A stretch of DNA of 64,000 bases from a virus. A program made the position numbers and the translations under genes. Positions within the stretch are counted from its first letter, which is position 1. Every line of letters starts with the position of its first letter. Where the stretch lies: IMG/VR virus record IMGVR_UViG_3300028888_000124, positions 2,407-66,406 of that record. One strand, 5' to 3'. Of this stretch, positions 7,758 to 57,750 are shown piece by piece. The notes under the pieces were generated by a model that worked only from the letters and a program-made list of their open reading frames with translations, did no database searches and was not told the origin of the DNA.

Positions 7758-7798
7758 CTGTTTCCATTATGGATGAGTAAGGAAAATTACTCATCCAT
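7758..7798 (+). promoter_or_regulatory. conserved intergenic motif CTGTTTCCATTAT followed by a perfect 12-bp palindrome ATGGATGAGTAA-ggaaaa-TTACTCATCCAT
   Basis: The motif recurs at least 8 times in intergenic regions (see findings); palindrome read directly. Confidence 0.5.
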
Positions 7799-7834
7799 GT
7801 TTCGATGATTAAGGAAGAAAAGGAGAAAAGGTAC

Positions 7835-8830
7835 ATGATTCAGTTACAGAAAGCAAAACGCAGTTAGGCGCGTATCAAATAGGCTTTGGGCGGTCCTTCC
7901 GGCAGCGGAAAAACGCTCAGTTCTCTTTTGATGGCGTATGGCCTGGTAAAAGGAGAGCATCCCGAGTGGCCGGATGATAAAATCTGGGAAAACATCTGCA
8001 TCATTGATACGGAAAACGGTTCTGCCAGCCTGTATGCCAACAGTTCTGTAGGTCAGTATAAAACAGGCTCGTATTTCACCATTCCGATGGAACCGCCTTA
8101 TACATTCGAGAGCTATGAAGCTGCGATTCATGCTGCGGAGGACGCCAATATCAAGGTAATCATCATCGACAGCCTGACGCACCTGTGGCAAGGCGAAGGC
8201 GGCGCTTTGGATATGCAGAGCAAGGTTGCTTCCGCCCGGTATCAGGGCAATAGCTACATGGCTTGGCGTGATATTACCCCCAAGCTGAATCATCTGATGG
8301 ATGTGATCCTGCAAAGCCCCTGCCACATCATTGGCAATATCCGCGCCAAGACAGACTATGTGCAGGAGAAAAACGCGGCAGGAAAAACCGTTGTAAAAAA
8401 TGTTGGTATGGGCCTGCAGATGAGAGACGGCGTGGAATTTGAATTCTCCACCGTGTTCATGTTGGATCAGGATCATATCGCAAACGCCACCAAGGATCGT
8501 ACCGGCTTGTTTGACGGAAAGTATTTCACCATCACGCCCGAAACCGGCAAGGAAATCTATCGTTGGCTGGCTTCCAGCGACAGTGCCAGCGTTCCCGAAA
8601 AGAAAACTGCGCCCGCTCCTGTGAAAACGGAGCCTGAACCTGCGGAAACCACCGACGCCGTTACCGTGGAACAGGTGGACGCATTGATCAAGAGCCGCGT
8701 GGCTGGCGTCACCCCAGAAGAGAAGAAGCAAATCATTGCGGAGCTCAAGGAAATCGCTGGAACGGCAAACTATATGAAGATTACCGACCCCGGCGTCCTG
8801 AAAGCGATCTATGATCACTTCAACGGATAA
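7835..8830 (+). CDS. RecA-like / Sak4-like ATPase (Walker A GGPSGSGKT); contains 2 in-frame TAG codons (7865, 7880) read as sense
   Basis: Strong RBS AAGGAGAAAAGG then ATG at 7835, in frame with track ORF 7886..8830; P-loop immediately after the TAGs; TAA stop. Confidence 0.75.
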
Positions 8831-8847
8831 AAGAAAGGAAAACAAGC

Positions 8848-9258
8848 ATGAATAAAGTTATGATTATTGGCAGGTAGACCGGTGATCCAACCCAGGGTCA
8901 GGGCGCTACACCCTGCGCCAACTTTTCCGTCGCGTCCGACACGCGAGTCAAAGGAAAAGACGGCGAATTCATCACCAATTTTTACCGCTGCACCGCATGG
9001 CGCGGCCAGGGCGAAAACTGCATGAAATATCTCCATAAAGGAGATCGGGTTTCCATCATTGGTGATCTGGTGCTGCAGTCCTATGTGGACATCAAGGGCC
9101 AGGAGCGCTACAGCATGCAGGTAAGCATTACCGATATCGAATTTCTGAGCGCCAAACGCTCAAAAGACGAACCGCAGCAATCACAAGCATCACGAGCAAG
9201 TTCACAGCCAACGGCAGCGGCAGTCACCGATGATAACGAGGATGACCTGCCGTTCTAA
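8848..9258 (+). CDS. ssb: single-stranded DNA-binding protein (SSB); in-frame TAG at 8875
   Basis: N-terminus MNKVMIIGR(TAG)TGDP matches the canonical SSB start MNKVILIGRLTKDP; acidic C-terminal tail DDLPF; RBS AAAGGAAAACAAGC. Confidence 0.85.
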
Positions 9259-9326
9259 ATCATGAATTCACGGCCAGGTTGCACGCGCTTCGATTCGCAA
9301 ACACGAATTGAAGGGAGACGCGCAAC

Positions 9327-9875
9327 ATGAAACTCACCTCTTATCAGGAAGAACAATTGATTCAGCAGTATGACAGGCTCCTGTGGAGCGTTGTGCATCG
9401 TTTCAAGCGCAGGAACCACGGAGGATATGACAACAAGGAAGATCTTCACAGCGAATGTACGCTTGTGTTTCTTCGCCATATCCGTTCCTGCGAAACGATG
9501 GATGAAGTGCGGAAAGTCCCCATCCGTGACATGATCAATGCCATGTGCCGTTTCGTACTGGAAGAACAGGCGCTTACCTATCCTCAGCGCACCACCAACT
9601 TTTCCCATGTAATAAAAAATGCGGCGCATAAAACAGACTATACCGCCGTTGACCGCGATGAGGATCGGCGCTCCGACCCCATGAACGACACGCTGGACGA
9701 GATCGCTTTCAGCAATTTTTACCATGGCTTATCGGCGGAAGATCGTATAATCGTGAAAATGAAGCTGGATGGAAGGCGAAATTGTGATGTCGCCCACGAT
9801 CTTGGTGTCACGGATGTTATCATTACGCGGGCCTTGAAAAGACTGCGTAAAATTTACACGGCTCAGGCGGCGTAA
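9327..9875 (+). CDS. sigma-70 family / ECF-like sigma factor (region 2 and region 4 HTH)
   Basis: C-terminal HTH DVAHDLGVTDVIITRALKRLRKIY with region-2-like N-terminus; RBS GAAGGGAG. Confidence 0.65.
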   Translation: MKLTSYQEEQLIQQYDRLLWSVVHRFKRRNHGGYDNKEDLHSECTLVFLRHIRSCETMDEVRKVPIRDMINAMCRFVLEEQALTYPQRTTNFSHVIKNAAHKTDYTAVDRDEDRRSDPMNDTLDEIAFSNFYHGLSAEDRIIVKMKLDGRRNCDVAHDLGVTDVIITRALKRLRKIYTAQAA

Positions 9876-9917
9876 TGCAAAATAATATTTACATAAAAGA
9901 AGTTAAAGGAAGTAAAT

Positions 9918-10091
9918 ATGGATATCAGCGTAACGATGACAAAAGAAATGTACAGGATTTTGCTGAACGGACGAAAAGCCACGGAAGATCATCCTGGCGT
10001 GAACGGATGCGGAACACCTGAAAAGGTGGCGGAATACGTGGATGAGACGTTTGGCCTGTTGGGCCATGTTGTGGAGGTCGTAACACAGTGA
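9918..10091 (+). CDS. small hypothetical protein (57 aa)
   Basis: RBS AAAGGAAGTAAAT then ATG. Confidence 0.35.
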   Translation: MDISVTMTKEMYRILLNGRKATEDHPGVNGCGTPEKVAEYVDETFGLLGHVVEVVTQ

Positions 10092-14439: not shown

Positions 14440-14465
14440 CGCTTTGAAAAAGCGCTCGTCTTTTG
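14440..14465 (+). terminator. hairpin cgctttgaaaaagcg plus CTTTTG, immediately followed by the TTTGTTTCCATTAT motif and the GTTTCCA..TGGAAAC palindrome (14462..14485)
   Basis: Read directly from the sequence. Confidence 0.45.
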
Positions 14466-14513
14466 TTTCCATTATCTGTGGAAACCCAATAAACGATAAG
14501 GAGTTTTAAAACA

Positions 14514-24570: not shown

Positions 24571-24597
24571 CCCGGTGAAATCCGGGTCTTTTTTTGT
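24571..24597 (+). terminator. Rho-independent terminator (cccgg-tgaaat-ccggg plus T-run), merging into the TTTGTTTCCATTAT motif at 24593..24606
   Basis: Read directly from the sequence. Confidence 0.55.
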
Positions 24598-24650
24598 TTC
24601 CATTATAAGCGGATATCAATTTTTCAAATAACGATAAAGGAGCTTGAACG

Positions 24651-26952: not shown

Positions 26953-27066
26953 TCGTATCACCTCGTCATTTTTTATATCTTTTCTTTCGTCACTTTTTTC
27001 AATAATCCTGCCTTTGAAAACAATTATTGTTTTTGTTCCCATTTCTTTTAGAAAGGAAGTGGTTTT

Positions 27067-30000: not shown

Positions 30001-30291
30001 GTCTATCCAGAGCATCTTGGCTGCTTTGCCATTCTGGAAGTGGACGACAAGTACAGTCCCAAGGTAAAGATGTACAATGTTGCCAAGGGTACGGTGGGCG
30101 TGATGAAGATGCGCAAGTCGCTGTATAAGTTGCATCCCCTTGCGGAAGGAAATGTGATCCGTCTGATTGATTGGAAACGGAAACCGGCTTACCAATACAT
30201 TGACGGGAAGCAAACGGTAAAAGCGGGGGTTTTTGATTTGTGGATCGAGGATTACGAAATTCTTTCCGGCAGTCCTGAAAAAGCGGCGTGA
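27067..30291 (+). CDS. dnaE: DNA polymerase III alpha-like replicative polymerase (PHP domain plus polymerase core); probable non-canonical ATC start
   Basis: Track ORF 27112..30291 (PDIDMN catalytic motif). In-frame upstream codons ISYVNYHRHSHYS match the DnaE N-terminus MSFVHLHVHSEYS. The only start 7 nt after SD AAGGAAG is ATC at 27067. Confidence 0.75.
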   Translation: MSYVNYHRHSHYSNIMLTDSVATNEDYCKRAVELGHTIVSSCEHGTPGAYREVYDLAKKYGLRWRYVAEAYFVKDRLTEDENGRRDRKNCHLILAAKTAKGIGDLNEVLSEANISGYYFRPRVDMELLLRLDPRDVFVTTACIGGIWVYGYNSDKETGEWSYDFTEPDALVRQLHAHFGDSFMLEVQSHNVEKQKAVNAHILDLYRKEGIKIIAGMDSHFIYPEDKALRDMRLEANGLHYEDEEGWALDYPSDEEAYLRFEEQGVLSPAQIQEAMENTNIFLDFEDVEFDKGKKLPTIYPDLTQEERNEKYRQLVLSKWDEYKKTVPQERWPEYEAGIKYEMDTITSTNTSDYFLLDYEWIRKAKEMGGQLTKTGRGSAPSYFTNTLLGFSSIDRFALPITMYPDRFISADRLKAGSLPDIDMNVSDQALFGEAMTEVMGEWHCAPMVAYGTLKRLAAWKMYCRAANVPFDVANELSDKLKAYELDYKHADEDEKDEINVEDYVPEKYREYLKASEKYLGMVDSISPHPCAYLICNQDIRREVGIFRINSKTSKKKVVYAAFIDGATADAYGYLKNDDLQVTVVKLNDEIYKRIGIPQPSVPELLKMTDGDQQTWDMYAQGWTLGLNQAEKEKSTEKVMRYKPKNISELSAFVAGIRPAFQSMLPKLLNRGSFSYDIPALDKLLQTKELPQSFILYQEQMMKVLQWGGFSAPESYAAIKAIAKKHPEKVLPLKERFMEGFAKRLIEEENTEASVAKETTDKVWTIIADACGYGFNSSHSTAVALDSLYTAWAKAHHPYETYVSLLSLYAEKKDKDRIAKAKVEMKKAFGISIAPCRFRQDNRSYFVDKDAHTISDALTSVKGISFAVAGKLYQMRNNQYDSAVDLFYDLEVNTSINSAVVKTLIQMGYFEEFGKAGKLLKLYQEFREGESKFSKTHVKTTQEKRLDTLRQIEKKLPDEDIPMQDQMAFEVEFYGTPLSVYPEHLGCFAILEVDDKYSPKVKMYNVAKGTVGVMKMRKSLYKLHPLAEGNVIRLIDWKRKPAYQYIDGKQTVKAGVFDLWIEDYEILSGSPEKAA

Positions 30292-30293
30292 CT

Positions 30294-30345
30294 TTGTTTC
30301 CATTATGTGTGAAGAGGAGCGATTCTTCTTCACACAATTTTTTAT
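30294..30345 (+). promoter_or_regulatory. TTTGTTTCCATTAT motif followed by the palindrome TGTGTGAAGA..TCTTCACACA
   Basis: Read directly from the sequence. Confidence 0.45.
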
Positions 30346-37481: not shown

Positions 37482-37509
37482 TTTTGGCCAACTGTAAAAA
37501 ACGCTGATA

Positions 37510-37545
37510 TTTGTTTCCATTACAGTCGGAGGGAAACCTCCGGCT
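37510..37545 (+). promoter_or_regulatory. TTTGTTTCCATTAC motif followed by the hairpin cggagg-gaaa-cctccg
   Basis: Read directly from the sequence. Confidence 0.45.
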
Positions 37546-44623: not shown

Positions 44624-44658
44624 TTTTAAGGGCGGGTGAAAATCCGCCCCGTTTTTGT
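44624..44658 (+). terminator. Rho-independent terminator (gggcggg-tgaaaat-ccgcccc plus GTTTTTG), followed by the TTTGTTTCCATTAT motif at 44654..44667
   Basis: Read directly from the sequence. Confidence 0.5.
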
Positions 44659-44686
44659 TTCCATTATGGGTGTAGGAGGGCAACGA

Positions 44687-48101: not shown

Positions 48102-48209
48102 TTACCGCCGGGTGTGTGTCTGTGCCGAACAGCCGACTGGCTTGTACTGCCCGACATGAGTTGTGCTTTGTGTTTCGTGGATTTGTGCTGTGTTAAGTGA
48201 AGTGTGTTA

Positions 48210-48296
48210 TCACTTTAGGATAGCAACAATCTACCTGGCAACCGATACCAGGAGTGTGGCTACTTTGATGATCCGGTCAAAGACTTTCTCGCTCAT
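48210..48296 (-). CDS. small hydrophobic peptide (28 aa; TAG at 48231 read as sense)
   Basis: RBS AAGAGGAGGCGGGCAAA then ATG. Confidence 0.35.
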
Positions 48297-48413
48297 TTTG
48301 CCCGCCTCCTCTTACGCAAAACACTGCCGCTGCGTTCACAGCGGGTTCTATGTCAACAGCCGTCCACCCGGCGGCTTACAAATATTATAGAAAATAAAAA
48401 GGAATATTGCAAG

Positions 48414-48935
48414 ATGAAAGAAACTTTTGTTTGCGCCGATCTTCACTTCTGCCACGAAAATATCATCAAGTATGAGAACCGCCCCTGGCTCAACGCAGAC
48501 GCCATGAACTGGGGCTTGATCCATAGCTGGAACCAGGTTGTTTCCAAGGATGATAAGGTATTCGTTCTGGGCGATGTTGGCTTCTGCGGCAAAGAAAAGA
48601 TGAGCGAGCTGGTTCATAAGCTGAACGGCTACAAGATTCTCATAATGGGCAATCATGATAGAGGACGGCCCACCCACTGGTGGAGAGAGGTCGGCTTCGA
48701 GGATGTTTCCAAGTATCCCGTGATCTATCACGAGCATATTGTTCTCATGCATGAGCCGCCCACGTATTTCAATGACGCCACGCCGTACTTCTATGTGTAC
48801 GGCCATGTTCATGGATGCCCTGATTATCAGGATCACACCGAGCATTCCGCCTGCGTCAGTATTGAGCGGCTGAATTATGCGCCCGCCAAACTGGATGACG
48901 TGATCAGTGGTTCGGCTTATACACATCAAAAATAA
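48414..48935 (+). CDS. calcineurin-like metallophosphoesterase
   Basis: CADLHF, GDVGFCG and GNHD motifs. Confidence 0.7.
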   Translation: MKETFVCADLHFCHENIIKYENRPWLNADAMNWGLIHSWNQVVSKDDKVFVLGDVGFCGKEKMSELVHKLNGYKILIMGNHDRGRPTHWWREVGFEDVSKYPVIYHEHIVLMHEPPTYFNDATPYFYVYGHVHGCPDYQDHTEHSACVSIERLNYAPAKLDDVISGSAYTHQK

Positions 48936-49039
48936 AACCGCCACGGAGCGACAAGCAGATGTTCGTTCGGCTGGAAAATCTCTGCAAGCTTATACCCAGT
49001 GTTCGTGAGATTGTGAATTGTGGAACGTGTAGTAAGGAA

Positions 49040-49147
49040 TTACTTCCTCATAAAACGGTCATACAACCAAGCAGCTATCTATCCGCCAAGGATACCCACC
49101 GCGAGGTCGTAGCCCAGCTTCAGAATTGCGTTTACAATAATCAGCAT
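49040..49147 (-). CDS. small hydrophobic peptide (35 aa; TAG at 49079 read as sense)
   Basis: RBS GAAAGGAAGGGAGG then ATG; single TM and a basic C-terminus. Confidence 0.35.
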
Positions 49148-49229
49148 GAGTAGCGACCTCCCTTCCTTTCACTTCCGGTTGCCCGGTTTCTATATCAACA
49201 GTCGAGCGGCCTCCCCGTGGCTTATCCAT

Positions 49230-49258
49230 ATTATATAATAAACTCCTTGGTTTTTCAA
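49230..49258 (-). promoter_or_regulatory. consensus sigma70 promoter TTGAAA, 17 nt spacer, TATAAT (leftward)
   Basis: Read on the minus strand. Confidence 0.55.
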
Positions 49259-49354
49259 CGCCCTGTCTCTGGATAACCTGTTTGTCGTCCAAGACAGGGT
49301 ACTTCATTTTTTTCTTGATAATTATCTAAGAAAAAATGAAAAAGTTGCCCTTCT

Positions 49355-49368
49355 GTGTCCCCATTATC
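49355..49368 (+). promoter_or_regulatory. variant of the recurring motif (TGTGTCCCCATTAT) upstream of the 49387 gene
   Basis: Read directly from the sequence. Confidence 0.3.
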
Positions 49369-49386
49369 AGTGTAAGGAGGAACGAA

Positions 49387-49701
49387 ATGAAAAAGATTGA
49401 GAAACAAAGCATCCAGTAGATCGAACAAGAAACGGATATCGTTCTTGATCCTTTGACAAAGCGGGCTACGGTATACTCCTGTATCCCGTCTATGGTGAAG
49501 AGGCTGTATGCCATGGCTGAGGAGCATGGGGATGAAGTAAAAGTCGAACTGGACAATTCTTATGGGTTCATGATCTCTGTTCCGCAAAGCTGGATCAAGG
49601 TTCGTCCGTCTGTGAAACGTCAATTGACTGATGAGCAAAAGGCGGCGCTGGCAGAAAGAATGAATAAGGTCCGAAAGGAAAAGAGAAAGGAAACAAAATG
49701 A
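49387..49701 (+). CDS. hypothetical protein (104 aa); in-frame TAG at 49417
   Basis: RBS AAGGAGGAACGAA then ATG at 49387, in frame with track ORF 49453..49701. Confidence 0.45.
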
Positions 49702-49865
49702 ACATCACAATTTTAGGAATACTTGACATCCTGATTGGCATAAGCGATTTAGCAATGGCCGTTGTCGATATCATGACAGGCGAATATGTCATGGCGGTCA
49801 TGTTATTCTTGTTCGGAATTTCTGTGCTTTGCTTCGGCATTTATTTTTTGGTGCACGAAAAATGA
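49698..49865 (+). CDS. small two-TM membrane protein (55 aa)
   Basis: ATG overlaps the upstream TGA. Confidence 0.4.
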   Translation: MNITILGILDILIGISDLAMAVVDIMTGEYVMAVMLFLFGISVLCFGIYFLVHEK

Positions 49866-50452
49866 AAATCAAAAATGTGCTTGCCCATCTGAAAAAGATC
49901 ATGACACATCGGCGCTGGGTTCGTTACTACTGCTTCAAAGCTGGGTTATACTGGCAGGGGCTGACGCATGATCTATCCAAATATTCCCCTACTGAGTTCT
50001 GGGAGTCGGTCAAGTATTATCAGGGCACATCATCTCCAATCATCGCATGCAAAAAAGATAAAGGCTATTCCATGGCCTGGTTCCATCACCGTGGCAGAAA
50101 CAAGCACCACTGGGAATACTGGGTAGATGACTTTGATCATGGCATGATCCCAAAGCTGATGCCTGAGCGGTATGCCATCGAAATGTTCTGCGATTTCCTG
50201 GCTGCTGGCCGCGCCTACATGGGCGAAGATTATTCCCGTCAAAAGGAGTACGCCTGGTGGACAGAAAAACGAAAGATCTATGTGATGCACCCTGCTGTCA
50301 GGGATTTCATCGACAGCTGCTTTGCCGGGTACTTAGCCTTCGGCGAACGCTATGCCTTAGATCGTGCACGGCTTCACAGGATCTATCAAACATGCGTAGC
50401 AGGTTATCAAACATGTGCAGAGGAAAACGGGAATGGCAAAAGCAAAACGTAA
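49862..50452 (+). CDS. hypothetical His/Trp-rich protein
   Basis: ATG in the frame of track ORF 49829..50452. Confidence 0.45.
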   Translation: MKIKNVLAHLKKIMTHRRWVRYYCFKAGLYWQGLTHDLSKYSPTEFWESVKYYQGTSSPIIACKKDKGYSMAWFHHRGRNKHHWEYWVDDFDHGMIPKLMPERYAIEMFCDFLAAGRAYMGEDYSRQKEYAWWTEKRKIYVMHPAVRDFIDSCFAGYLAFGERYALDRARLHRIYQTCVAGYQTCAEENGNGKSKT

Positions 50453-50612
50453 ACCTCGCCCCTCTATGCCGCGCTGGTGGTGGTTGGACTCAGATGGTTG
50501 CTGGTGGTGCCATAACCGCCAAAACTGTAATTCCTGTAAAATACTAAAACGGGCAGACTTGCCAAGGAAAAGTGATTTACAGGAACGTGAAAGAAGCAAA
50601 GAAGAAAAATGA
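50433..50612 (+). CDS. small basic Cys/His protein (CWWCHNRQNCNSC, HNH-like)
   Basis: ATG after GAGGAAAACGGGA. Confidence 0.35.
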   Translation: MAKAKRKPRPSMPRWWWLDSDGCWWCHNRQNCNSCKILKRADLPRKSDLQERERSKEEK

Positions 50613-50833
50613 AAGTTGAACTCGGATCGGGAATTACACCATATACCAAACCGCCTGATACACCAGTACCATTGAAACCGCGAAAGATCCCTTTAATCCA
50701 AAAATGCCCATTGTTTTCTATCTGTAACTGCAAGAGTGCTGTATGCGCCGTTCTTCCGCCAGACAATTCATGCTACTGGTACAGGTACTTCAAAACGCGG
50801 ATCAAAGAAGTAGAAGAAAACAAGCAGGAGTGA
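50609..50833 (+). CDS. small Cys-rich protein
   Basis: ORF track. Confidence 0.35.
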   Translation: MKVELGSGITPYTKPPDTPVPLKPRKIPLIQKCPLFSICNCKSAVCAVLPPDNSCYWYRYFKTRIKEVEENKQE

Positions 50834-50871
50834 GGTTCAGAGGGACGGCCTCTGGTTGTTGTCCTACTTGT

Positions 50872-50982
50872 TTAACGCTTCATATATTCTACCTTTTCCG
50901 TGCTGGCCGTTTGGCTGCGAACCTCACAAACAACCGCAGGGTATCCCATCAGAACCATCATAAGTGCATAACCAATGCTCAT
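50872..50982 (-). CDS. small hydrophobic peptide (36 aa)
   Basis: RBS GGAGGTAAAGTAATA then ATG; transcript driven by the promoter at 51147..51175. Confidence 0.35.
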   Translation of the reverse strand: MSIGYALMMVLMGYPAVVCEVRSQTASTEKVEYMKR

Positions 50983-51146
50983 TATTACTTTACCTCCATC
51001 AATTGTGATTTTCCAAAGAGTCTGACTTTTGTTATCGGCCTTTCGGCCAAGAGGTATTTCGCAACTTATATTGACGCAGCACAGCAAAATGTACATGAAG
51101 CAAACAAATAGCTTGCGTCAGCAGTTCATGGGATTCTGCCTGTTTG

Positions 51147-51175
51147 CAGTATAGCAGATACGGCCAGCTTTGTAA
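51147..51175 (-). promoter_or_regulatory. near-consensus sigma70 promoter TTTACA, 17 nt spacer, TATACT (leftward)
   Basis: Read on the minus strand. Confidence 0.5.
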
Positions 51176-51354
51176 ATAGCTACACCGCAGAGTGGATGAT
51201 GCGGGATAAAAATATCGACCATCCCTCATGGGTGGGGACACTGAAAGACTGTCAGCCACATGAGGTGAGTCCAATAGCCCATGGTTCTAATGGACGATGC
51301 GTGAACGGCGAAGCGTTAGCGAAGCCTAAAAAGAACCTGAAACGCTTGGCAAAA

Positions 51355-51392
51355 ACAAAACGAGCCCTTTCGGGCCCGCCCGGAAGCTCGGC
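51355..51392 (-). terminator. Rho-independent terminator downstream of hicA (gggccc-GAAA-gggctc plus GTTTTGTTTTTG)
   Basis: Read on the minus strand. Confidence 0.45.
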
Positions 51393-51399
51393 TGACATG

Positions 51400-51600
51400 T
51401 TACCGAAGTCGCACGTCAGTCGTACTCTCTATGCTTTTCTGCGTCCCTATGGGCTACTCTTTCGAGAACGGGATCGTAACGGTTTTCCCATCTAAGGACT
51501 TCATAACCGTGTGGCTGCCCTTGCCACGTTTCGGGATGGCGGTCCATCCCTACTTAACCAGCATAGAGATGACTTCCTTTGAAGAATAGGTTTTCTTCAT
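51400..51600 (-). CDS. hicA: HicA-family mRNA interferase toxin (66 aa) with 2 in-frame TAG codons (51550, 51454)
   Basis: RBS GGAGGTGAGGCCG then ATG. Translation VK(TAG)GWTAIPKRGKGSHTVMKSLDGKTVTIPFSKE(TAG)PIGT matches HicA motifs L.K.GW...KGSH...vT.P.H...lp.Gt. Promoter TTGACT, 17 nt spacer, TATGCT lies upstream. Confidence 0.6.
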
Positions 51601-51664
51601 CGGCCTCACCTCCAAATGAAGCATACACGATGAAGAATTCAAAGTCAAGTCCCGGGCGGGATTT

Positions 51665-51695
51665 ATATAAAAAGCTCCGCTGTGTGGAGCGGAGC
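51665..51695 (-). terminator. hairpin ctccgct-ccacaca-agcggag plus CTTTTTA on the minus strand
   Basis: Read directly from the sequence. Confidence 0.4.
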
Positions 51696-51699
51696 CGTT

Positions 51700-51830
51700 G
51701 GATGATCAGTCTTCTTTTTCTACGATGGTCACGCAGAAATCAATAAAGCCGATGATTCCAGCCGGTGCTACTAACCAGATCGGGAGGATTCCGCAGATAC
51801 CTGCGAAAGAGATCCAGTTAGAGACATACA
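51700..51830 (-). CDS. possible small membrane peptide; start uncertain, tandem TAG TAG near the 5-prime end
   Basis: Hydrophobic minus-strand ORF ..WISFAGICGILPIWLVAPAGIIGFIDFCVTIVEKED. Confidence 0.2.
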
Positions 51831-52025
51831 CCAGCCACCTTAGATATTTCTACTACCTCAATAGACATCACCCGACCTTTCTTTTTAGAGGGCGAGTAAT
51901 GTCATTATAACAGAATCGTTTGGTTAAAACAAGCTTACCAACGCAAGCCAAAACAAAAAAATAGGGGCCCCTTCATTTTAGAAGAGGCCCCAAATAATTA
52001 TATCGGAAGAAAGAGAGGAATCAAT

Positions 52026-53210
52026 TTGACGGTTGACACTTGTAATGAATCTTTATATACTAAAGATGAGTTGGAAGAAGTAGCCAAGATGACTGCCAGC
52101 GCGGTTGTCCAAGAACTGCTTCATTCCAACGTGAACCTTGACAACTCCATATCTGAGATTATAAATGTGCCAGAAAGGACAAATGATATGGCACGTATCA
52201 AACAAAGAGTTGTCCTCCCGAACGGACAGACCGTATGGTGCACAGGAGATACAATTGGAGACGCTATTACAAACCTCATGTCGCATATCGCTATAAACAA
52301 TAACGCGCCAAAACGAACAACCCCAACCTTACAGGAATACGGAGACAAATGGTATCACCTATACCACATCAAAAAAGTAAAGTGGAATACCGCGCAAAAC
52401 ACTCGTATCTATTTGGACAAACATATCTATCCGATAATTGGAGAAAAGCATCTTGATGAAATCACATTTGACGATATTCAATCTGTTTTCAACTCCATGG
52501 ATAGCTTGGCACGATCAACTGTTGAGAAGGTACAAATTGTCCTCAATCAAATTATGAAGAATGCAATAGAAGATGGCTACATCGAGAAAAACGTTATGTC
52601 ATCTTCTCGGTATGTGTTAAGCAAGAAAGTTAAGCAGAGAGAAGCTCTATCTACATCATCCGCACAAGATGTTATCAGACAGCTGGACACCCTGGAACCA
52701 AACGATAAAATTCTTATGGCACTCATTATCTTCACAGGACTTCGGCGTGGAGAAATTCTTGCGCTGACTTGGGACGATATTGATTTTGAAAACAAAGTAA
52801 TCCACGTAAAGCACAGCGTCACATTTAAAAATAACCAACCAATCATCTGCGGGACAAAAAGCAAGTCCGGCGTAAGAGACGTTCCAATAATAAAGGAGCT
52901 AAGGGAAATACTGAGCGCGGAAGAAGATAAGCATGGCTACATCATAAAGAATCATAAGTTCCCGGACATGCCGATTACAGAAAAAACATATCAGCGGGCA
53001 TGGGAGCGAATCAAAAAAACAATTGATCTTCACAATGCTACAGCCCATGTATTCAGACACACTTTTGCCACAATGATGGAGCCACACACAGACATAAAAA
53101 CTCTGCAGACAATAATGGGGCATGCGGATATTCAAACAACAATGAACCGATATACGCATAAAATTGATAAAAATATACAGGCACTTGCAGAAATCGATTC
53201 TTTTGTGTGA
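52026..53210 (+). CDS. int: tyrosine integrase (phage integrase family)
   Basis: AHVFRHTFAT (HxxR) and NRYTH catalytic Tyr motifs. AT-rich and TAG-free, compositionally distinct from its neighbours. Confidence 0.85.
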   Translation: MTVDTCNESLYTKDELEEVAKMTASAVVQELLHSNVNLDNSISEIINVPERTNDMARIKQRVVLPNGQTVWCTGDTIGDAITNLMSHIAINNNAPKRTTPTLQEYGDKWYHLYHIKKVKWNTAQNTRIYLDKHIYPIIGEKHLDEITFDDIQSVFNSMDSLARSTVEKVQIVLNQIMKNAIEDGYIEKNVMSSSRYVLSKKVKQREALSTSSAQDVIRQLDTLEPNDKILMALIIFTGLRRGEILALTWDDIDFENKVIHVKHSVTFKNNQPIICGTKSKSGVRDVPIIKELREILSAEEDKHGYIIKNHKFPDMPITEKTYQRAWERIKKTIDLHNATAHVFRHTFATMMEPHTDIKTLQTIMGHADIQTTMNRYTHKIDKNIQALAEIDSFV

Positions 53211-53300
53211 CATGAGTTGTGACATGAAACTACCCTGAAACCCTTATGCCACAACGGTTTCGAGACTTGTGTTGTGACACGAGATGTGACAAAGTCGGTA
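53209..53300 (+). repeat. four TGTGACA repeats and duplicated AAACCCTTATG near the integrase 3-prime end; candidate arm-type or Xis binding sites
   Basis: Direct repeats read from the sequence. Confidence 0.35.
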
Positions 53301-53384
53301 AAAATGAATATACACCCCATAATTTCCCTGCTCAAAACCACAATAAAAAATCCGCAAACCCTTATGTGGTAAGGATCTGCGGTT

Positions 53385-53425
53385 TGGTACGCCCGGTGCG
53401 ATTCGAACGCATGGCCTTCAGAGTC
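53385..53425 (-). other. attP-like core carrying a tRNA 3-prime fragment (T-arm GCGTTCGAATCGC, acceptor CGGGCGT, discriminator A, CCA)
   Basis: tRNA T-loop and acceptor signature on the minus strand. No matching 5-prime acceptor strand lies within 100 nt, so it is a fragment and not a gene; it is adjacent to int. Confidence 0.45.
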
Positions 53426-53544
53426 GGAGTCTACTATCTTTATGTAAAAGTGCATATTTATAATCTCGGTATGGAGATGTTAAGTTTCTATCAAAGTACC
53501 AATTTTGCTTGATATTTTGATAAGAACTTGAGCCAAAAAACAAA

Positions 53545-53572
53545 AAGAGGGAGGTCTTTCGACCTCCCTTAT
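53545..53572. terminator. bidirectional hairpin gagggaggtc-tttc-gacctccctt
   Basis: Downstream of the minus-strand holin gene. Confidence 0.5.
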
Positions 53573-53575
53573 TTA

Positions 53576-54037
53576 TTACATTTTGTCCCCACGAATCTCG
53601 GGAACGTTTTCATTTTCTTCTTCTGGTGCCTTCTTCTCGTGCGGTAGCACAATGCAAACCGCCTCAATGATCCCGTCGATAATCATAGCGATCTGCGGTG
53701 TAATCTCAATACCAGCATTACCCAATGTCTCCTTCACGAGAGATTTGGCGTAAGGATTCCGTTCTTCTTTTGTTAAGTTTCCAAGCTTCCACGCCTTCTC
53801 TGCAATCTCCGCCCCTTCGATAGCCGCCTTCATTACGGTTGAAACGGTCTTGAGCTCCTTCCGCTCAGGCCAGATATTGTATACAGCATCACAAGCAGCC
53901 TGCAGTCCGGCGATCACAGGGCGTGACAACACAATTCTCTTCAGGATGTCGATTCCCGTAAACCGTTTGACGAAGTACAAGATCGCTACAATCGCCGCAA
54001 AAACAATCTAAGCGATTTGATAAATGTTCAGTTCCAT
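53576..54037 (-). CDS. holin, LL-H family-like (N-terminal TM plus soluble domain); in-frame TAG at 54008 inside the TM segment
   Basis: RBS GAAGGAGGG then ATG at 54037, in frame with track ORF 53576..53980. The soluble domain resembles Holin_LLH proteins. Confidence 0.6.
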
Positions 54038-55558: not shown

Positions 55559-55781
55559 CACTATCACCTGATTCCGCGTCTTCGTTTTCTGTCTCTTCCT
55601 CTGGAAGGTCTGCCAACGGGATCATTTCGTTTGTTTCCTCATATTCCCGATCCTCATCGGCTGGATCAATTGCGTCCTCATATTTGACGCCGTCCCGCGT
55701 AATATATACCCCAATGTCTGAATACGTGCGGTACAGCGTCACACCGTCACTGCGAACCACATAAAGCTCTTTCACGATCAT
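55545..55781 (-). CDS. small acidic protein
   Basis: ORF track. Confidence 0.3.
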   Translation of the reverse strand: MIVKELYVVRSDGVTLYRTYSDIGVYITRDGVKYEDAIDPADEDREYEETNEMIPLADLPEEETENEDAESGDSDDPE

Positions 55782-56952
55782 GCTGATTCCTCCTTCTTAT
55801 TTCTCTCTTCGAAAACCATGGAAAATCTCTTTGCTCCTTCGGAAACAATTCCCTCACTAACTGTTCCATTTTACAAATCGTTCTGAACGCCATAAAATTT
55901 CTTGCGTATGCCCGCCAGGAAATGAAGGATTGAAAAACTTCAAGCGGTGTCATCTTTCCATTTTCCACCCGTGTCTTTAACCGTTTCAACTTCCGCCTTT
56001 CTACCACAACGCTGTGCTTATATATTTTTTTGATTACCTTGCCGCTGTTCGTCAGGTAGAATCGCGCTTTAAGAAAAGTGAATCCATGGGTCAGCTTCAC
56101 AATCTGCGTTTTCTTTGTATTCATCACAATGCCAAGCTCGTCGCAAATCCTGCGAATCTCTTTGAGGCAATGCCGCAAGTATTCCTTGGATGGGTGAATC
56201 AGGTATCCGTCATCCATATATCTTCCGTACCATTTGATCCTGAGCACTTCCTTCACGTAATGATCCAAACGGTTGGCGGAGGCAAGCGCCTATATCTGAC
56301 TTACCTGGCTGCCCAGTCCCAAACCTTTATCGCCAAACATGTGAACCATTTGCATAGCGACACTCTTTATTTCATTGTCCGAAACTGCCCGGTCGATCAC
56401 CTGTTCTATGACGGCGTGTGACACATTATCAAAGAATTTGCTGAAATCAAAAAGCAGCACATATCCATCATTTCCGTATTTCCGGTAATACTGGCGCAGG
56501 TGCGTTTCCATTCGCCTGATCGCAAATGCGTATCCCTTGTTCTCCATTGACGCGCCGTTATCATATATAAAAGAGCGTTTGACGGCGGGAACCAGGGCGT
56601 AATCGCAAAGACAGCGCTGTACACCACGCTCTCGAACTGTCACGCTTTTGATGTGGCGGTCATGGCCGCGTTCCCTGATATCAAACTCATAGAATTTATC
56701 TGGCTTGAATTTGCGTTTCTTCATTCTCCGGTAGCATTTTTCCACTTCCGTCGGAGCAAAGACGATTTGCTTTTGAATGCTGGCCTTCCATCTTACGCCA
56801 CGAGTGCATAGCTGAAAAGCCCGATAAAGGTGAGGATAGCTGAAAACCTGATCGTATGTGCCGATCTGGTTTTTGTTATATTCTTTCTATTTCTGTTTTC
56901 TCTTTTGAATACGGCGCTGGTATCTCGCCTCATGCCTTTCTTTGCTGTTCAT
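55747..56952 (-). CDS. DGR reverse transcriptase (motif 4 LGSQVSQ of the SQ type, YMDD); 2 in-frame TAG codons (56887, 56290)
   Basis: Fuses track ORFs 56290..56745 and 55747..56268 across the TAG at 56290, which sits in the S(P/Q)LLAN motif, and extends to the ATG at 56952 after GGAGGAAGA. RT motifs 1 to 7 are recognisable. Confidence 0.85.
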
Positions 56953-57180
56953 TCTTCCTCCAAAAATGGGCAGTCGCCCACGTCTGATAGATGGCTTTCC
57001 GCGATAGACGCATAGAACCACTGGGCATGAAACAAAGGGTTCGCCATCGACCTTTGCCATGCAAGAAGCGTCCGCCCAGGTTCGTCACGACTGATATTTA
57101 CGCTGAATGCGAAGGTTATTTCCTCCTTCTCTCCACCCGCGCTGATTTCGCAAAGCCTACTTTGTCTGACGGAGAGGATC

Positions 57181-57301
57181 CGAAGACCACGCCATTCGTG
57201 TTGGTCGGACCGTTATTGTTGTTGTTGCCGTTGTTGTTCACATTCACGAAGTTCGAAGTCGAATTCGCAGAACGGGTCCACCAGTTGTTCGTAGAGCCGG
57301 T
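57181..57301 (-). repeat. DGR template repeat (TR); AAC/AAT-rich, about 120 bp
   Basis: Aligns to VR1 and VR2 with all mismatches at TR adenines. Confidence 0.8.
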
Positions 57302-57336
57302 CTCATACAGGAAATAACCTCAATTAAAATGATAAA

Positions 57337-57750
57337 TTAAAATGGTTCGTTCAAAAACGACCAACGCTTTTTATCTGTTTCCATTACGCCTTGAATCAGG
57401 CGCATCTCTTCATTGATTTTTTCACTCCATTGCTGTATAATATTTTTGTCAATACCGAATCTGCCGTCTGCGAGGCCGATGAAACAGTCCAGCTTTTTCA
57501 GTTCACCAATGGCTTTCATGAAATAATCTTTTCTGGTCTGCAGCTCTCCTGCGTTCGTCGGCCAGATGTTATTGGCTTCGATCACATGACCGCAGGTATC
57601 AAGCGCTGCGTCGATGATTCTTTGCCCCAGGCCGAAGCGCTGTCCCTTTGGAAAATGCCCATACTGCACAAGCGTGAAGGCTGCCTATTCGCGGGCTTGA
57701 TAAATAAATTGCGTTGATGGTTCTGATCGTAGACTTTTAGGGACTGACAT
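57337..57750 (-). CDS. avd: Avd-like DGR accessory protein (four-helix-bundle protein family); in-frame TAG at 57685
   Basis: QRFGLGQRIIDAALDT..IEANN pattern of the four-helix-bundle family. ATG at 57750 after AGGAGG, in frame with track ORF 57337..57669. Sits between the target gene and TR-RT. Confidence 0.7.
57373..57405 (+). promoter_or_regulatory. plus-strand copy of the TCTGTTTCCATTAC motif followed by the hairpin cgcct-tgaatc-aggcg, inside the minus-strand avd gene
   Basis: Read directly from the sequence. Confidence 0.3.

What the first reader, a model, noticed from the sequence alone, without database searches (positions are those of the whole stretch)
7758..57405. Recurring intergenic motif TTTGTTTCCATTAT followed by a variable hairpin, plus a phage-encoded sigma factor
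Near-identical copies occur at 7758, 14462, 24593, 30294, 37510, 44654 and 57373. Variants occur at 27031 (TTTGTTCCCATTTC, before dnaE) and 49355.

The copies are always intergenic and oriented with the downstream genes. Two directly abut a Rho-independent terminator U-tract. Each is followed within a few bases by a short palindrome of unrelated sequence:
- ATGGATGAGTAA..TTACTCATCCAT;
- GTTTCCA..TGGAAAC;
- TGTGTGAAGA..TCTTCACACA;
- cggagg..cctccg.

An RBS and start come 20 to 40 nt later. The window also encodes a sigma-70 family protein (9327..9875).

The motif may be the promoter element for phage-sigma-dependent middle or late transcription, with the hairpins as 5-prime stabilisers or processing sites. 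Alternatively it may be an anti-termination or RNase processing signal.
Basis: seen in the sequence. Interest (0 to 1): 0.6.

Follow-up and report, generated by a model that had tools for sequence, protein, structure and literature searches.

The report
Promoters for a phage sigma factor
The repeated motif is the downstream half of a two-part promoter that occurs eight times in an uncultivated gut or rumen phage and is most likely read by the phage's own small sigma factor; this is a familiar kind of phage gene control found in a phage family that has not been described.

Summary
The motif is real but incompletely described. TTTGTTTCCATTAT is the downstream half of a fixed-geometry element: TGAAAA, 13 variable bases, TGT, then YCCATTAT, then a pyrimidine-G step 4-5 bases later. 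Eight sites score 30-36 bits and the next best scores 13.7. All eight are on the + strand, non-coding and in front of genes. The 57373 copy fails: no upstream box, antisense inside a retroelement.

In 11 related metagenomic phages the same gene junctions keep both boxes and the spacing while the spacer diverges. The downstream box changes by lineage.

ORF 9327-9875 is a real but divergent two-domain sigma factor, the only one in the window. It lies in the first motif-driven operon.

The "variable hairpin" is not part of the motif. Only 3 of 8 sites have a significant downstream hairpin. Most hairpins are terminators of the preceding operon, placed before, inside or just after the promoter.

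Best reading: middle-gene promoters for the phage sigma (confidence about 0.65). This is a new member of a known kind.

Seen in passing: in-frame TAG codons that align mainly with leucine, absent from early genes, and a diversity-generating retroelement.

The parts
7740..7775 (+). Promoter 1: TGAAAA (7740-7745), TGT (7759-7761), TCCATTAT (7763-7770), predicted start G at 7775. Drives AAA_24 ATPase (ATG 7835), SSB (8848) and the sigma gene.
   Evidence: 33.9 bits. The same junction is conserved in L006, L007, L008, L015, L029, L030, L031, L032, L011 and L012.
14445..14480 (+). Promoter 2, just after the primase-helicase gene. The TGAAAA box lies in the loop of a weak hairpin (14440-14454). Predicted start G at 14480.
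   Evidence: 36.3 bits. Conserved in 8 other lineages. Hairpin.
24576..24611 (+). Promoter 3, before the Macro-domain gene. TGAAAT forms the loop of terminator 24569-24588, and that terminator's U-tract is the T-run of the motif.
   Evidence: 33.7 bits. Terminator. Homologous sites in L033 and L034 have compensated stems.
27015..27050 (+). Promoter 4, before dnaE (27112-30291). Variant TGAAAA..TGTTCCCATTTC; predicted start A at 27050.
   Evidence: 30.9 bits.
30276..30311 (+). Promoter 5. Its -35 box overlaps the last codons of dnaE. The -10 box is followed at once by terminator hairpin 30306-30336, and the predicted start G at 30311 lies inside the 5' arm.
   Evidence: 36.3 bits. Hairpin z -5.6. 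Terminator. L033 and L034 have the same layout with different stem sequences.
37493..37528 (+). Promoter 6 (TGTAAA variant of the -35 box, CCATTAC). Followed by hairpin 37524-37545 and a T-rich tail. Predicted start G at 37528 lies inside the 5' arm.
   Evidence: 32.3 bits. z -3.3. L034 21337 keeps TGTAAA and a compensated hairpin.
44637..44672 (+). Promoter 7, before the Rnl1-type RNA ligase (ATG 44687). TGAAAA is the loop of terminator 44630-44649. The predicted leader is 15 nt and begins GUAGGAGG.
   Evidence: 36.3 bits. Terminator. L034 23611 and L011 19905 have the same architecture with compensated stems.
49337..49372 (+). Promoter 8 (TGTGTCCCCATTAT). The predicted leader is 15 nt, running to ATG 49387 of a gene that contains an in-frame TAG.
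   Evidence: 29.9 bits. Gene call with TAG read as sense.
9327..9875 (+). Phage sigma factor, 182 aa: a sigma-2 helical domain (about residues 5-82), a disordered linker of about 35 residues, and a sigma-4 domain (about residues 118-181).
   Evidence: PHROG sigma families 2.5e-7 and 1.3e-6. 22 of 24 homologues hit Sigma70_r4_2, 14 hit Sigma70_ECF and 12 hit Sigma70_r2. A family profile hits SigF 1l0o_C at 7.6e-9. AlphaFold mean pLDDT 80; all 50 best Foldseek hits are sigma factors, the best being M. tuberculosis ECF SigL 6dv9_F. It is the only sigma in the window.
7698..7728 (+). Strong intrinsic terminator (13-bp stem plus T-run) that ends the early operon just upstream of promoter 1. Its sequence is conserved across relatives.
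7769..7798 (+). Hairpin just downstream of promoter 1. From the predicted start, a 6-bp stem (GAGUAA/UUACUC) would sit at the very 5' end of the RNA.
   Evidence: z -4.7. The truncated fold is -7.2 kcal/mol. Relatives carry CCGG..CCGG or CTGG..CCAG at the same place.
5770..5798 (+). Host-type (sigma-A-like) early promoter, TTGACG-17-TAAAAT. It is the probable source of the first transcripts that read towards the sigma gene.
   Evidence: The same position in relatives has TTGACA-17-TAAAAT (L008) and TTGACA-17-TAGAAT (L031).

Best explanation
The motif is the -10 half of a two-part promoter. The consensus is TGAAAA, N13, TGT, N, YCCATTAT, N3, Y-G. It is most likely recognised by host core RNA polymerase carrying the phage's own small sigma factor (ORF 9327-9875).

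**Proposed recognition (inferred)**
- The sigma-4 domain reads TGAAAA.
- The sigma-2 domain reads the TGT..YCCATTAT block.
- Transcription starts at the conserved G, 5 bases after the motif.

**Proposed layout of transcription**
- Eight such promoters divide the roughly 42-kb replication and nucleotide-metabolism arm of the phage into operons.
- Early genes to the left (1-7.7 kb) use ordinary host-type promoters.
- The sigma gene lies in the first motif-driven operon. Read-through from the early operon would prime it, and it would then amplify itself, as ECF sigma factors commonly do.

**The hairpins**
- Most are intrinsic terminators of the preceding operon, packed against the next promoter.
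- One lies upstream (7698).
- Three lie inside the spacer, with the -35 hexamer as the loop (14440, 24569, 44630).
- Two lie just downstream, so that the new transcript starts inside the 5' arm (30306, 37524). That transcript would keep only a short stem at its 5' end with no adjacent U-tract.

**Shown:** the anatomy, the statistics, the conservation and the identity of the sigma.
**Inferred:** that this sigma reads this motif, the start site, the autoregulation and the roles of the hairpins.
For: **Anatomy in the window**
- Eight sites score 29.9-36.3 bits against 13.7 for the next best on either strand. All are on the + strand and non-coding in a region that is 89.5% coding.
- The TGAAAA-N18-CCATTAT spacing is invariant.
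- No other 8-mer is enriched in the intergenic regions.

**Conservation across relatives**
- A logo from 33 instances (8 gene junctions, 12 phage lineages including the window) has high information at positions 1-6, 20-22 and 24-31, and near zero in the spacer.
- Position 35 is a pyrimidine in 33 of 33 instances. Position 36 is G in 31 of 33. This is the usual signature of a start site.
- The same junctions keep the element in phages whose sigma is only 33-70% identical.
- The -10 box varies by lineage: CCATTAT, CTATTAT or CTATGAT, TGTAAA with CCGTTAT, CCATAGT or CCATATT. This fits a phage-borne specificity factor.

**The sigma factor**
- Its identity as a sigma is supported, and it is the only one in the window.
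- It sits downstream of promoter 1. ECF sigma genes typically have a cognate autoregulatory promoter (PMC5758882).

**Not a host housekeeping promoter**
- The element does not fit host sigma-A geometry: aligned on CATTAT the spacer is 19-20 bases, and -12 is C.
- Canonical TTGACA-17-TAxAAT promoters do exist in the early region.

**Resemblance and precedent**
- The -35 box matches 5 of 6 bases of the B. subtilis ECF -35 box tgaAAC (PMC5758882).
- Phage 7-11 has eight promoters, GTAAtg-16-aCTA, read by its own sigma, gp47 (PMC8948821).

**Terminator coupling**
- Stem sequences differ between relatives while the layout is kept.
- Pairing around the -35 box is 53% against 41% in shuffles, with 1 of 500 shuffles as high.
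Against: - There is no transcript 5' end, binding or in vitro transcription data.
- All relatives were found through the sigma or dnaE genes. Co-occurrence of the sigma and the motif is therefore partly built in.
- Only about half of the phage genome is in the window. A second sigma, an RNA polymerase or an activator could be encoded elsewhere, and this sigma could instead serve late promoters that were not seen.
- No motif copy was found on the minus strand in the 10 kb of tail and retroelement genes. The sigma therefore cannot be shown to serve late genes.
- The sigma gene lies behind its own putative promoter and a strong terminator, so its first expression needs read-through, which is only assumed.
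- The spacing is 2-3 bases longer than the 14-17 bp reported for ECF promoters. The hallmark AAC and CGT bases are not kept.
Confidence: 0.65

Rival explanations
1. The element is a promoter, but it is read by a host alternative sigma factor. Candidates are a host ECF sigma or a sporulation-type sigma of the probable Clostridia host. The phage sigma would then serve other, unseen, late promoters.
For: - TGAAAA resembles the ECF -35 box tgaAAC (PMC5758882).
- From my own knowledge, CATTAT resembles the CAT-type -10 boxes of sporulation sigmas.
- The best PDB sequence match of the phage sigma is SigF, so the phage and host factors may share specificity.
- The sigma gene lies in a middle operon, as do the late sigmas of SPO1 and phiEco32 (PMC8948821, PMC13401047).
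- No late region was available to test.
Against: - The -10 box changes with phage lineage (CCATTAT, CTATTAT, CCGTTAT, CCATAGT) at homologous junctions. This is easier to explain by a co-evolving phage factor.
- The 18-19 base spacing fits no sigma class that I know of.
- Host ECF and sporulation sigmas are normally held inactive, which is a poor basis for replication-gene expression.
- The window contains only one repeated motif and only one sigma.
Confidence: 0.15
2. The element is a promoter read by host sigma-A polymerase that has been reprogrammed by a phage early activator, as T4 MotA/AsiA does at middle promoters. TGAAAA would be the activator box and CATTAT a weak sigma-A -10 box.
For: - CATTAT keeps the A at -11 and T at -7 of TATAAT.
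- About 20 early proteins upstream have no annotation, so an activator cannot be excluded.
Against: - C is invariant at the -12/-13 positions, and a conserved TGT lies 3-4 bases further upstream than an extended -10 TG would.
- No MotA- or AsiA-like protein was detected.
- A dedicated sigma factor is encoded and would be left without a target.
Confidence: 0.08
3. The element acts in RNA: an RNase processing site, an anti-termination signal or a structured leader carried on read-through transcripts.
For: - Three sites have strong hairpins just downstream.
- Three sites have a hairpin around TGAAAA.
- At the post-primase site the motif arm GTTTCC pairs with a downstream GGAAAC, with a compensated GTCTCC/GGAGAC in L007.
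Against: - RNAalifold finds no consensus structure in 30 aligned instances: 0 pairs.
- Hairpins are absent at 5 of 8 sites, and where present they vary in position.
- The conserved blocks are single-stranded-looking boxes at -35/-10 spacing with a Y-G start step.
- Rfam has no match at any site.
Confidence: 0.07
4. The element is a dispersed repeat with no regulatory role, such as a remnant of a mobile element or a recombination or packaging signal.
For: Four copies of the 14-mer are identical within one genome.
Against: - Only 20 of 36 positions are conserved, and the flanks and spacer are unrelated.
- Every copy sits at a gene start, co-oriented with the gene.
- The element is kept at orthologous junctions over deep divergence.
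- There are no target duplications or terminal repeats.
Confidence: 0.03

Closest known systems
Late promoters of Salmonella phage 7-11, read by the phage sigma SaPh711_gp47 (PMC8948821)
   Same: - A small phage-encoded sigma with a region-4 homologue.
- Eight promoters with a two-part consensus at fixed spacing (GTAAtg-16-aCTA), placed in front of operons.
- Host sigma-70 promoters used for early genes.
   Different: - Unrelated host (Gram-negative), unrelated phage family and a different consensus.
- Those promoters are experimentally mapped late promoters. The ones here precede replication (middle-type) genes and are only predicted.
- No sequence relation between the two sigmas was tested here.
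phiEco32 gp36 middle and late promoters (tAATGTAtA; PMC8948821)
   Same: - A phage sigma that redirects host core polymerase.
- Start sites a few bases downstream of a strongly conserved element.
   Different: phiEco32 promoters have a single element with no -35 box, because gp36 lacks region 4. The element here has a conserved -35 box, and its sigma has a clear sigma-4 domain.
Bacillus phage SPO1 sigma cascade, gp28 then gp33/gp34 (PMC13401047; consensus sequences from my own knowledge)
   Same: - A Firmicute phage.
- Early genes read by host sigma-A, then a phage sigma for the next gene class.
- The window's TTTGTTT run recalls the gp28 -10 box TTTNTTT.
   Different: - The T-run is not conserved in relatives.
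- The -35 box is TGAAAA, not AGGAGA.
- Only one sigma is seen here, and the phage appears temperate (integrase at 52026-53210).
Bacillus subtilis ECF sigma promoters (sigma-W, X, M, V): tgaAAC ... CGTA/CGTC (PMC5758882)
   Same: - A two-domain sigma of ECF size.
- The -35 box matches 5 of 6 bases (TGAAAA against TGAAAC; TGTAAA in one lineage against TGTAAC of sigma-X, the latter from my own knowledge).
- The L031 lineage has CGTTAT in the -10 box.
- The sigma gene is behind a cognate promoter.
   Different: - The hallmark C of AAC is A in 30 of 33 instances.
- The -10 box is CCAT, not CGT, in most lineages.
- The spacing is 2-3 bases longer than the reported 14-17 bp.
- No anti-sigma gene is evident.
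Overlapping terminator-promoter junctions in compact phage genomes (general knowledge)
   Same: An intrinsic terminator of one unit is packed against the promoter of the next.
   Different: Here the -35 hexamer itself forms the terminator loop at three sites, and the predicted start lies inside the terminator's 5' arm at two sites. I know of no systematic description of either layout, but I did not search the literature for one.

Membership tests
Sigma-70 family protein, two-domain (ECF-like) architecture, for ORF 9327-9875 | A sigma-2 domain (regions 2.1-2.4) | tested here: met
   - PHROG sigma family over residues 9-93 at 1.3e-6.
- Sigma70_r2 hit in 12 of 24 homologues; the window protein alone reaches only E 0.04.
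- Aligned to SigF region 2 in 1l0o_C.
- Helical bundle at residues 5-82 with pLDDT around 80-92.
Sigma-70 family protein, two-domain (ECF-like) architecture, for ORF 9327-9875 | A sigma-4 domain with a helix-turn-helix | tested here: met
   - Sigma70_r4_2 hit in 22 of 24 homologues, best 1.8e-7.
- PHROG sigma family over residues 106-177 at 2.5e-7.
- Residues 118-181 are helical with pLDDT above 90.
Sigma-70 family protein, two-domain (ECF-like) architecture, for ORF 9327-9875 | Overall fold matches solved sigma factors, with no region 1.1 or region 3 | tested here: met
   - All 50 best Foldseek PDB hits are sigma factors; the top hit is ECF SigL 6dv9_F at E 8.6e-5.
- TM-scores are low (about 0.3) because the relative orientation of the two domains is not fixed.
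- At 182 aa with a disordered 35-residue linker, there is no room for region 3.
Sigma-70 family protein, two-domain (ECF-like) architecture, for ORF 9327-9875 | Binds core RNA polymerase and confers promoter specificity | not testable with these tools
   Needs biochemistry.
Bacterial sigma-dependent two-part promoter, for the motif | Two conserved boxes at fixed spacing with a non-conserved spacer | tested here: met
   The spacing is invariant in 33 instances. Information content is 1.3-2.0 bits in the boxes and below 0.6 in the spacer.
Bacterial sigma-dependent two-part promoter, for the motif | Located upstream of genes, co-oriented with them and non-coding | tested here: met
   True for 8 of 8 sites in a region that is 89.5% coding. 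Predicted leaders are 15-62 nt.
Bacterial sigma-dependent two-part promoter, for the motif | A start-site signature at the right distance from the -10 box | tested here: met
   At positions 35/36, 4-5 bases after the -10 box, there is a pyrimidine in 33 of 33 instances and G in 31 of 33. This is a signature, not a mapped start.
Bacterial sigma-dependent two-part promoter, for the motif | Transcription actually initiates there | not testable with these tools
   No transcript data are available.
Canonical ECF-type promoter (AAC in the -35 box, CGT in the -10 box, spacer 14-17 bp; PMC5758882) | AAC in the -35 box and CGT in the -10 box at a 14-17 bp spacing | tested here: not met
   - The -35 box is GAAAA; position 6 is A in 30 of 33 instances.
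- The -10 box is CCAT in most lineages, and CCGT only in L031.
- The spacing from TGAAAA to C(A/G)T is 19 bases.
- It works like an ECF promoter but is not a canonical one.
Host sigma-A (sigma-70 housekeeping) promoter | TTGACA, 16-18 bases, TATAAT | tested here: not met
   - None of the 8 sites is reported by the sigma-70 consensus scan.
- Aligned on CATTAT the spacer is 19-20 bases and -12 is C.
Intrinsic (Rho-independent) terminator, for the associated hairpins | A G+C-rich stem-loop followed directly by a T-run, downstream of a gene | tested here: met
   - Met for 7698-7728, 24569-24588, 30306-30336, 37524-37545 and 44630-44649.
- Weak for 14440-14454.
- Absent at 27015 and 49337.
- The hairpin at 7769-7798 has no T-run and is not a terminator.
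Structured RNA motif (Rfam-type family) | A conserved secondary structure with covariation across instances | tested here: not met
   - RNAalifold finds 0 pairs on 30 instances.
- No Rfam hit at any site.
- The stem around the -35 box is present in only about half of the instances.

The most novel reading that the evidence does not exclude
The sigma-and-promoter system may be the transcriptional half of a two-layer timing switch.

- In-frame TAG codons are absent from the host-promoter-driven early genes and from the integrase.
- They begin in the very first gene after promoter 1.
- They become denser in the tail and retroelement genes.
- They align mainly with leucine, not with glutamine as in the phage recoding described so far.

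Phage-sigma transcription and amber-to-leucine suppression, by a phage class-II tRNA with anticodon CUA, would then jointly gate middle and late expression in this temperate phage family.
Probability: 0.3. Interest if true: 0.7.

Novelty: new member of a known kind. Interest (0 to 1): 0.4.

Why it matters
- It gives a precise, testable promoter model (consensus, eight coordinates, predicted start sites) and a candidate sigma for a widespread, uncultivated family of roughly 100-130 kb phages. These are probably phages of Clostridia from rumen or gut samples; this is inferred from sample names and from tail-protein homologues in Blautia and Lachnospiraceae.
- It allows operon maps and temporal classes to be drawn for these genomes.
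- It offers a compact orthogonal sigma-promoter pair for Firmicute engineering.
- It shows two tidy ways of fusing a terminator to the next promoter.
- Conceptually it is not new: phage-encoded sigmas with private promoters have been known since SPO1 and T4.

Tried and rejected
**Searches for relatives**
- Near-identity DNA search of the phage collection: no match.
- tblastn of the sigma against the phage collection: no match.
- The closest dnaE there is 39% identical (Tsamsa-like Bacillus phages, Geobacillus E3).
- Exact bipartite pattern in IMG/VR: only 5 single, chance-level hits.
- Looser 15-base pattern in IMG/VR: swamped by chance hits, and it only re-found the contig of L011.
- Sigma profile against one genome per species: nothing.

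**Reaching the late genes**
- I tried to reach the late-gene region of close relatives through tail-protein homologues. The tail module is mosaic and none of the hits lay on the contigs that carry the sigma. Whether late genes use the motif remains untested.

**L035**
- L035 is a prophage-like stretch at the end of a 300-kb MAG contig with a similar replication module. It has no motif copy. It has a 210-aa protein in the sigma position, but homology to the sigma family is unproven (hhalign probability 26%).

**Other tests**
- Consensus RNA structure: none.
- tRNAs in the window: none.
- Rfam at the motif sites: none.
- PHROG search of ten early proteins for a regulator: only one hit, to a family of unknown function.
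- My first gene map was wrong in places because TAG was treated as a stop; I redid it with TAG as sense.

**Readings rejected**
- The 57374 copy as a functional site.
- Downstream hairpins as a constant part of the motif.
- A sigma-A promoter.

Full report

The 14-mer TTTGTTTCCATTAT with up to two mismatches occurs 10 times against 0.97 expected, and none of 100 shuffles reached 10. Every good copy has TGAAAA exactly 11 bases upstream of the 14-mer, which gives TGAAAA-N18-CCATTAT.

A weight matrix built on the informative columns splits the window cleanly:
- Eight sites score 29.9-36.3 bits. The first T of TGAAAA is at 7740, 14445, 24576, 27015, 30276, 37493, 44637 and 49337.
- The next best position on either strand scores 13.7 bits.
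- Shuffled windows give at most one hit above 12 bits.

The copy at 57373/57374 is not:
- It has no upstream box and no downstream Y-G.
- It scores below 12 bits.
- It lies antisense inside a retroelement cassette.

About one chance hit at two mismatches is expected anyway.

**2. Where the sites sit**

All eight sites are on the + strand. I redid the gene map with TAG read as a sense codon (see section 9). On that map all eight -10 boxes fall in non-coding DNA, in an arm that is 89.5% coding. The chance probability is about 1.5e-8. Only the -35 box of the 30276 site overlaps the last codons of dnaE.

Each site precedes a gene or operon:

| Site | Downstream gene or operon |
|---|---|
| 7740 | AAA_24 ATPase, SSB, sigma |
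| 14445 | Unannotated 199-aa gene, then NAD-salvage and ligase genes |
| 24576 | Macro-domain gene |
| 27015 | dnaE |
| 30276 | RNA ligase |
| 37493 | Small 68-aa gene, then a phosphoesterase gene |
| 44637 | Rnl1-type RNA ligase |
| 49337 | Gene starting at 49387 |

No other 8-mer is enriched in the intergenic regions.

**3. Related phages**

There is no close relative among deposited phages. The dnaE product is 39% identical to those of Tsamsa-like Bacillus siphoviruses and Geobacillus E3.

The sigma ORF has 37 metagenomic homologues at 41-98% identity. dnaE has hundreds, on contigs of up to 100-130 kb. I fetched syntenic loci from 11 distinct lineages.

At the same gene junctions these loci keep both boxes and the spacing, while the spacer is unrelated. 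A logo from 33 instances (30 of them aligned as A2) reads:

| Positions | Content | Conservation |
|---|---|---|
| 1-6 | T G A A A A | A4 and A5 invariant |
| 7-19 | Spacer | Near-zero information |
| 20-22 | T G T | G in 32 of 33 |
| 24-31 | Y C C A T T A T | C25 and T28 invariant |
| 32-34 | Variable | None |
| 35 | Pyrimidine | 33 of 33 |
| 36 | G | 31 of 33 |

The layout is a -35 box, an upstream extension of the -10 box, a -10 box and a pyrimidine-purine start step. That is the anatomy of a bacterial promoter. With that start, TGAAAA occupies -35 to -30.

The T-run of the window's 14-mer (TTTGTTT) is specific to the window's lineage. Only TGT is general.

**4. The -10 box varies by lineage**

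| -10 box | Lineages |
|---|---|
| CCATTAT | window, L006, L007, L029, L030, L033, L034 (sigma 60-70% identical where known) |
| CTATTAT or CTATGAT | L008, L015, L032 (55-58%) |
| CCGTTAT or CCGTTGA, with TGTAAA as the -35 box | L031 (48%) |
| CCATAGT or CCATATT | L011 (37%) |
| CCCTTTA | L012 (33%) |

A promoter that drifts with the phage while remaining internally consistent within each genome is what a phage-borne specificity factor predicts. A caveat applies: the loci were found through the sigma or dnaE genes, so plain co-occurrence is not independent evidence.

**5. The sigma factor**

The evidence is:
- Its two halves hit PHROG sigma families at 1.3e-6 and 2.5e-7.
- Among 24 aligned homologues, 22 hit Sigma70_r4_2, 14 hit Sigma70_ECF and 12 hit Sigma70_r2.
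- A family profile hits Geobacillus SigF (1l0o_C) at 7.6e-9, over both region 2 and region 4.
- The AlphaFold model (mean pLDDT 80) has two helical domains joined by a disordered linker of about 35 residues.
- All 50 best Foldseek PDB matches are sigma factors, headed by M. tuberculosis ECF SigL.

It is the only such gene in the window. It lies third in the operon behind promoter 1. That fits the common positive autoregulation of ECF sigmas (PMC5758882).

**6. What the element is not**

*Not a host housekeeping promoter.* None of the eight sites is picked up by the sigma-70 scan. Aligned on CATTAT the spacer would be 19-20 bases with C at -12. Genuine TTGACA-17-TAxAAT promoters do exist in the early region, at 5770-5798 in the window and at the same place in L008 and L031.

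*Not a canonical ECF promoter.* The AAC and CGT hallmarks are not kept, and the spacing exceeds the reported 14-17 bp (PMC5758882).

*Not a structured RNA.* RNAalifold finds no pair in 30 aligned instances, and Rfam has no hit at any site.

**7. The hairpins**

Only three of the eight window sites fold significantly downstream of the motif: 7769 (z -4.7), 30305 (z -5.6) and 37522 (z -3.3). The other five have z between +0.2 and +0.5. Taken together with the terminator scans, the hairpins sort into classes.

- *Terminator upstream of the promoter.* 7698-7728 is strong and conserved in sequence across relatives.
- *Terminator inside the promoter.* At 14440, 24569 and 44630 the -35 hexamer forms the loop, and the U-tract is the T-run before TGT. 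Relatives keep this layout with different stem sequences. Pairing around the -35 box is 53% against 41% in shuffles, with 1 of 500 shuffles as high. The feature is real but optional.
- *Terminator just after the -10 box.* At 30306-30336 and 37524-37545 the predicted start falls inside the 5' arm. Read-through RNA from dnaE would form the full stem next to the U-tract and terminate. RNA started at the promoter would keep only a shorter stem at its exact 5' end, separated from the U-tract. This is inference, but L033 and L034 repeat the layout with other stem sequences.
- *True leader hairpin.* Behind promoter 1, most relatives carry CCGG..CCGG starting at +3, changed to CTGG..CCAG in L030 and L031. 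The window has GAGUAA..UUACUC starting at +1.

With the predicted start, 14 of 33 instances have such a terminal stem. Sites 2, 3, 4, 7 and 8 mostly do not.

**8. Mechanism and confidence**

I take it as likely, at about 0.85, that these are promoters. That they are read by this particular sigma I put at about 0.65.

The main rival keeps them as promoters but assigns them to a host alternative sigma, or to host sigma-A with a phage activator. This sigma would then serve late promoters that lie outside the window. I could not reach late regions of close relatives. The 10 kb of minus-strand tail and retroelement genes in the window hold no copy.

The closest documented parallel is Salmonella phage 7-11: eight mapped promoters, GTAAtg-16-aCTA, read by its own sigma gp47, with host promoters for early genes (PMC8948821). 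Others are phiEco32 gp36, which uses a single element (same paper), and the SPO1 cascade (PMC13401047). The finding is therefore a new member of a known kind.

**9. Seen in passing**

*In-frame TAG codons.*
- The AAA_24 gene really starts at 7835 and carries TAG at 7865 and 7880. SSB starts at 8848 with TAG at 8875.
- With TAG read as sense, 25 genes contain 38 TAGs.
- Several conserved genes gain a proper start and ribosome-binding site.
- The reverse transcriptase becomes one 401-aa ORF, and three tail ORFs become one 1635-aa ORF.
- The same TAG positions recur in independent assemblies.
- Residues aligned with the window's TAGs in relatives are L 46, I 6, Q 5, E 3 and others 8, with 17 further TAGs. 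This points to leucine, not the glutamine of code 15.
- L035, a prophage-like stretch in a MAG contig, has an 86-nt tRNA with anticodon CUA right after dnaE. By my inspection of the sequence it has a long variable arm and A73. I did not fold it or check it further.
- TAG density is 0 per 2360 codons in early genes, 1.6 per 1000 in the middle arm, 3.7 per 1000 in the minus-strand genes and 0 in the integrase. Phage recoding has been described before, but as glutamine or tryptophan, and it is avoided in integrases (bioRxiv 10.1101/2021.08.26.457843, PMC10607447).
- I found no report of TAG-to-leucine in phages in three searches of the library. That does not exclude one.

*Diversity-generating retroelement.* The evidence is Rfam RT-2 RNA at 56951-57174(-) with 127 bits, a reverse transcriptase at 55747-56952(-), and a template/variable repeat pair at 57771-57952 and 58957-59138 that is 85% identical.

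Noticed in passing
window 7865, 7880, 8875, 24027, 42743, 43982, 44072, 49417, 60650(-), 62057(-) and others; L008, L015, L029, L032, L035: - With TAG read as sense, 25 genes contain 38 in-frame TAG codons, some at positions shared by independent assemblies.
- Residues aligned with them in relatives are mostly leucine (L 46, I 6, Q 5), not glutamine as in code 15.
- TAG density is 0 in the early genes and the integrase, 1.6 per 1000 codons in the middle arm, and 3.7 per 1000 in the tail and retroelement genes.
- No report of TAG-to-leucine in phages turned up in three literature searches.
   Followed up: partly
L035 13188-13273: An 86-nt tRNA with anticodon CUA lies directly after dnaE in a prophage-like stretch at the end of a MAG contig (GCA_031550535.1). 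By inspection of the sequence it has a long variable arm (class II) and A73, which is compatible with a leucine-type amber suppressor. No tRNA was found in the window or in the other loci.
   Followed up: partly
window 55747-60641, minus strand: A diversity-generating retroelement:
- a reverse transcriptase that is one 401-aa ORF (55747-56952) if TAG is read through;
- Rfam RT-2 RNA at 56951-57174 (127 bits);
- a template/variable repeat pair at 57771-57952 and 58957-59138 (85% identical), with a third weaker copy at 57120-57301;
- a target that is the C-terminus of a 1635-aa tail-like protein with LRR_5 and DUF6273 domains.
   Followed up: partly
L006, L007, L029, L030, L031 at about 9900-10000; L032 at about 4735-4800: The leader of the sigma gene carries a conserved inverted repeat, GAGAACG..(35-40 nt)..CGTTCTC. 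A third copy, GGAGAACG, overlaps the ribosome-binding site. This suggests alternative pairings that control sigma translation. The window, L008 and L015 have a different leader.
   Followed up: no
window 7698-7728 and the homologous place in all relatives: The terminator before promoter 1 (AAATCAGGAGGAAAAAATCTTCCTGATTTTTTT) is conserved in sequence, not only in structure, down to relatives with 37% sigma identity. All other terminators vary in sequence. It may be a regulated read-through point that primes sigma expression.
   Followed up: no
window 14480-14487; L006, L008, L029, L030, L032 site 2; L033 site 3: GGAACCCC (or GGAAACCC) is conserved at the predicted start of the post-primase promoter. 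It is complementary to the TTCC of the -10 box, with a compensated GTCTCC/GGAGAC pair in L007. The role of this palindrome is unexplained; it could be an operator, a DNA hairpin or just a preferred initial transcribed sequence.
   Followed up: partly
window 46500-53600: A cluster of strong host-type promoters and terminators, mostly on the minus strand (for example 49258-49230 TTGAAA-17-TATAAT and 52033-52061 TTGACA-17-TATACT). It surrounds small ORFs and a tyrosine integrase (52026-53210). This is probably the lysogeny and moron region of a temperate phage.
   Followed up: no
L035 3760-3960: Two copies of a 45-nt element (GTTCCAnACACCATnCAnAnGACGCCTATATAnAGTAGAGGGGTAAA) lie upstream of the AAA_24 gene in the distant MAG relative. 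That relative lacks the TGAAAA..CCATTAT motif and has a 210-aa protein of uncertain homology in the sigma position (hhalign probability 26%).
   Followed up: partly
window 6151-7074; window 26548-27015: - A second tyrosine recombinase sits inside the early operon and is conserved in all relatives.
- A stretch of about 470 nt with no convincing + strand gene precedes promoter 4, with a bidirectional terminator at 26552-26574.
   Followed up: no
P0048, P0051, P0053 and many other dnaE homologues: Many relatives carry inteins, some with HNH domains, in dnaE (products of 1213-1681 aa against 1059 aa here). L033 has an HNH endonuclease gene splitting nrdD. The window's copies are uninterrupted.
   Followed up: no
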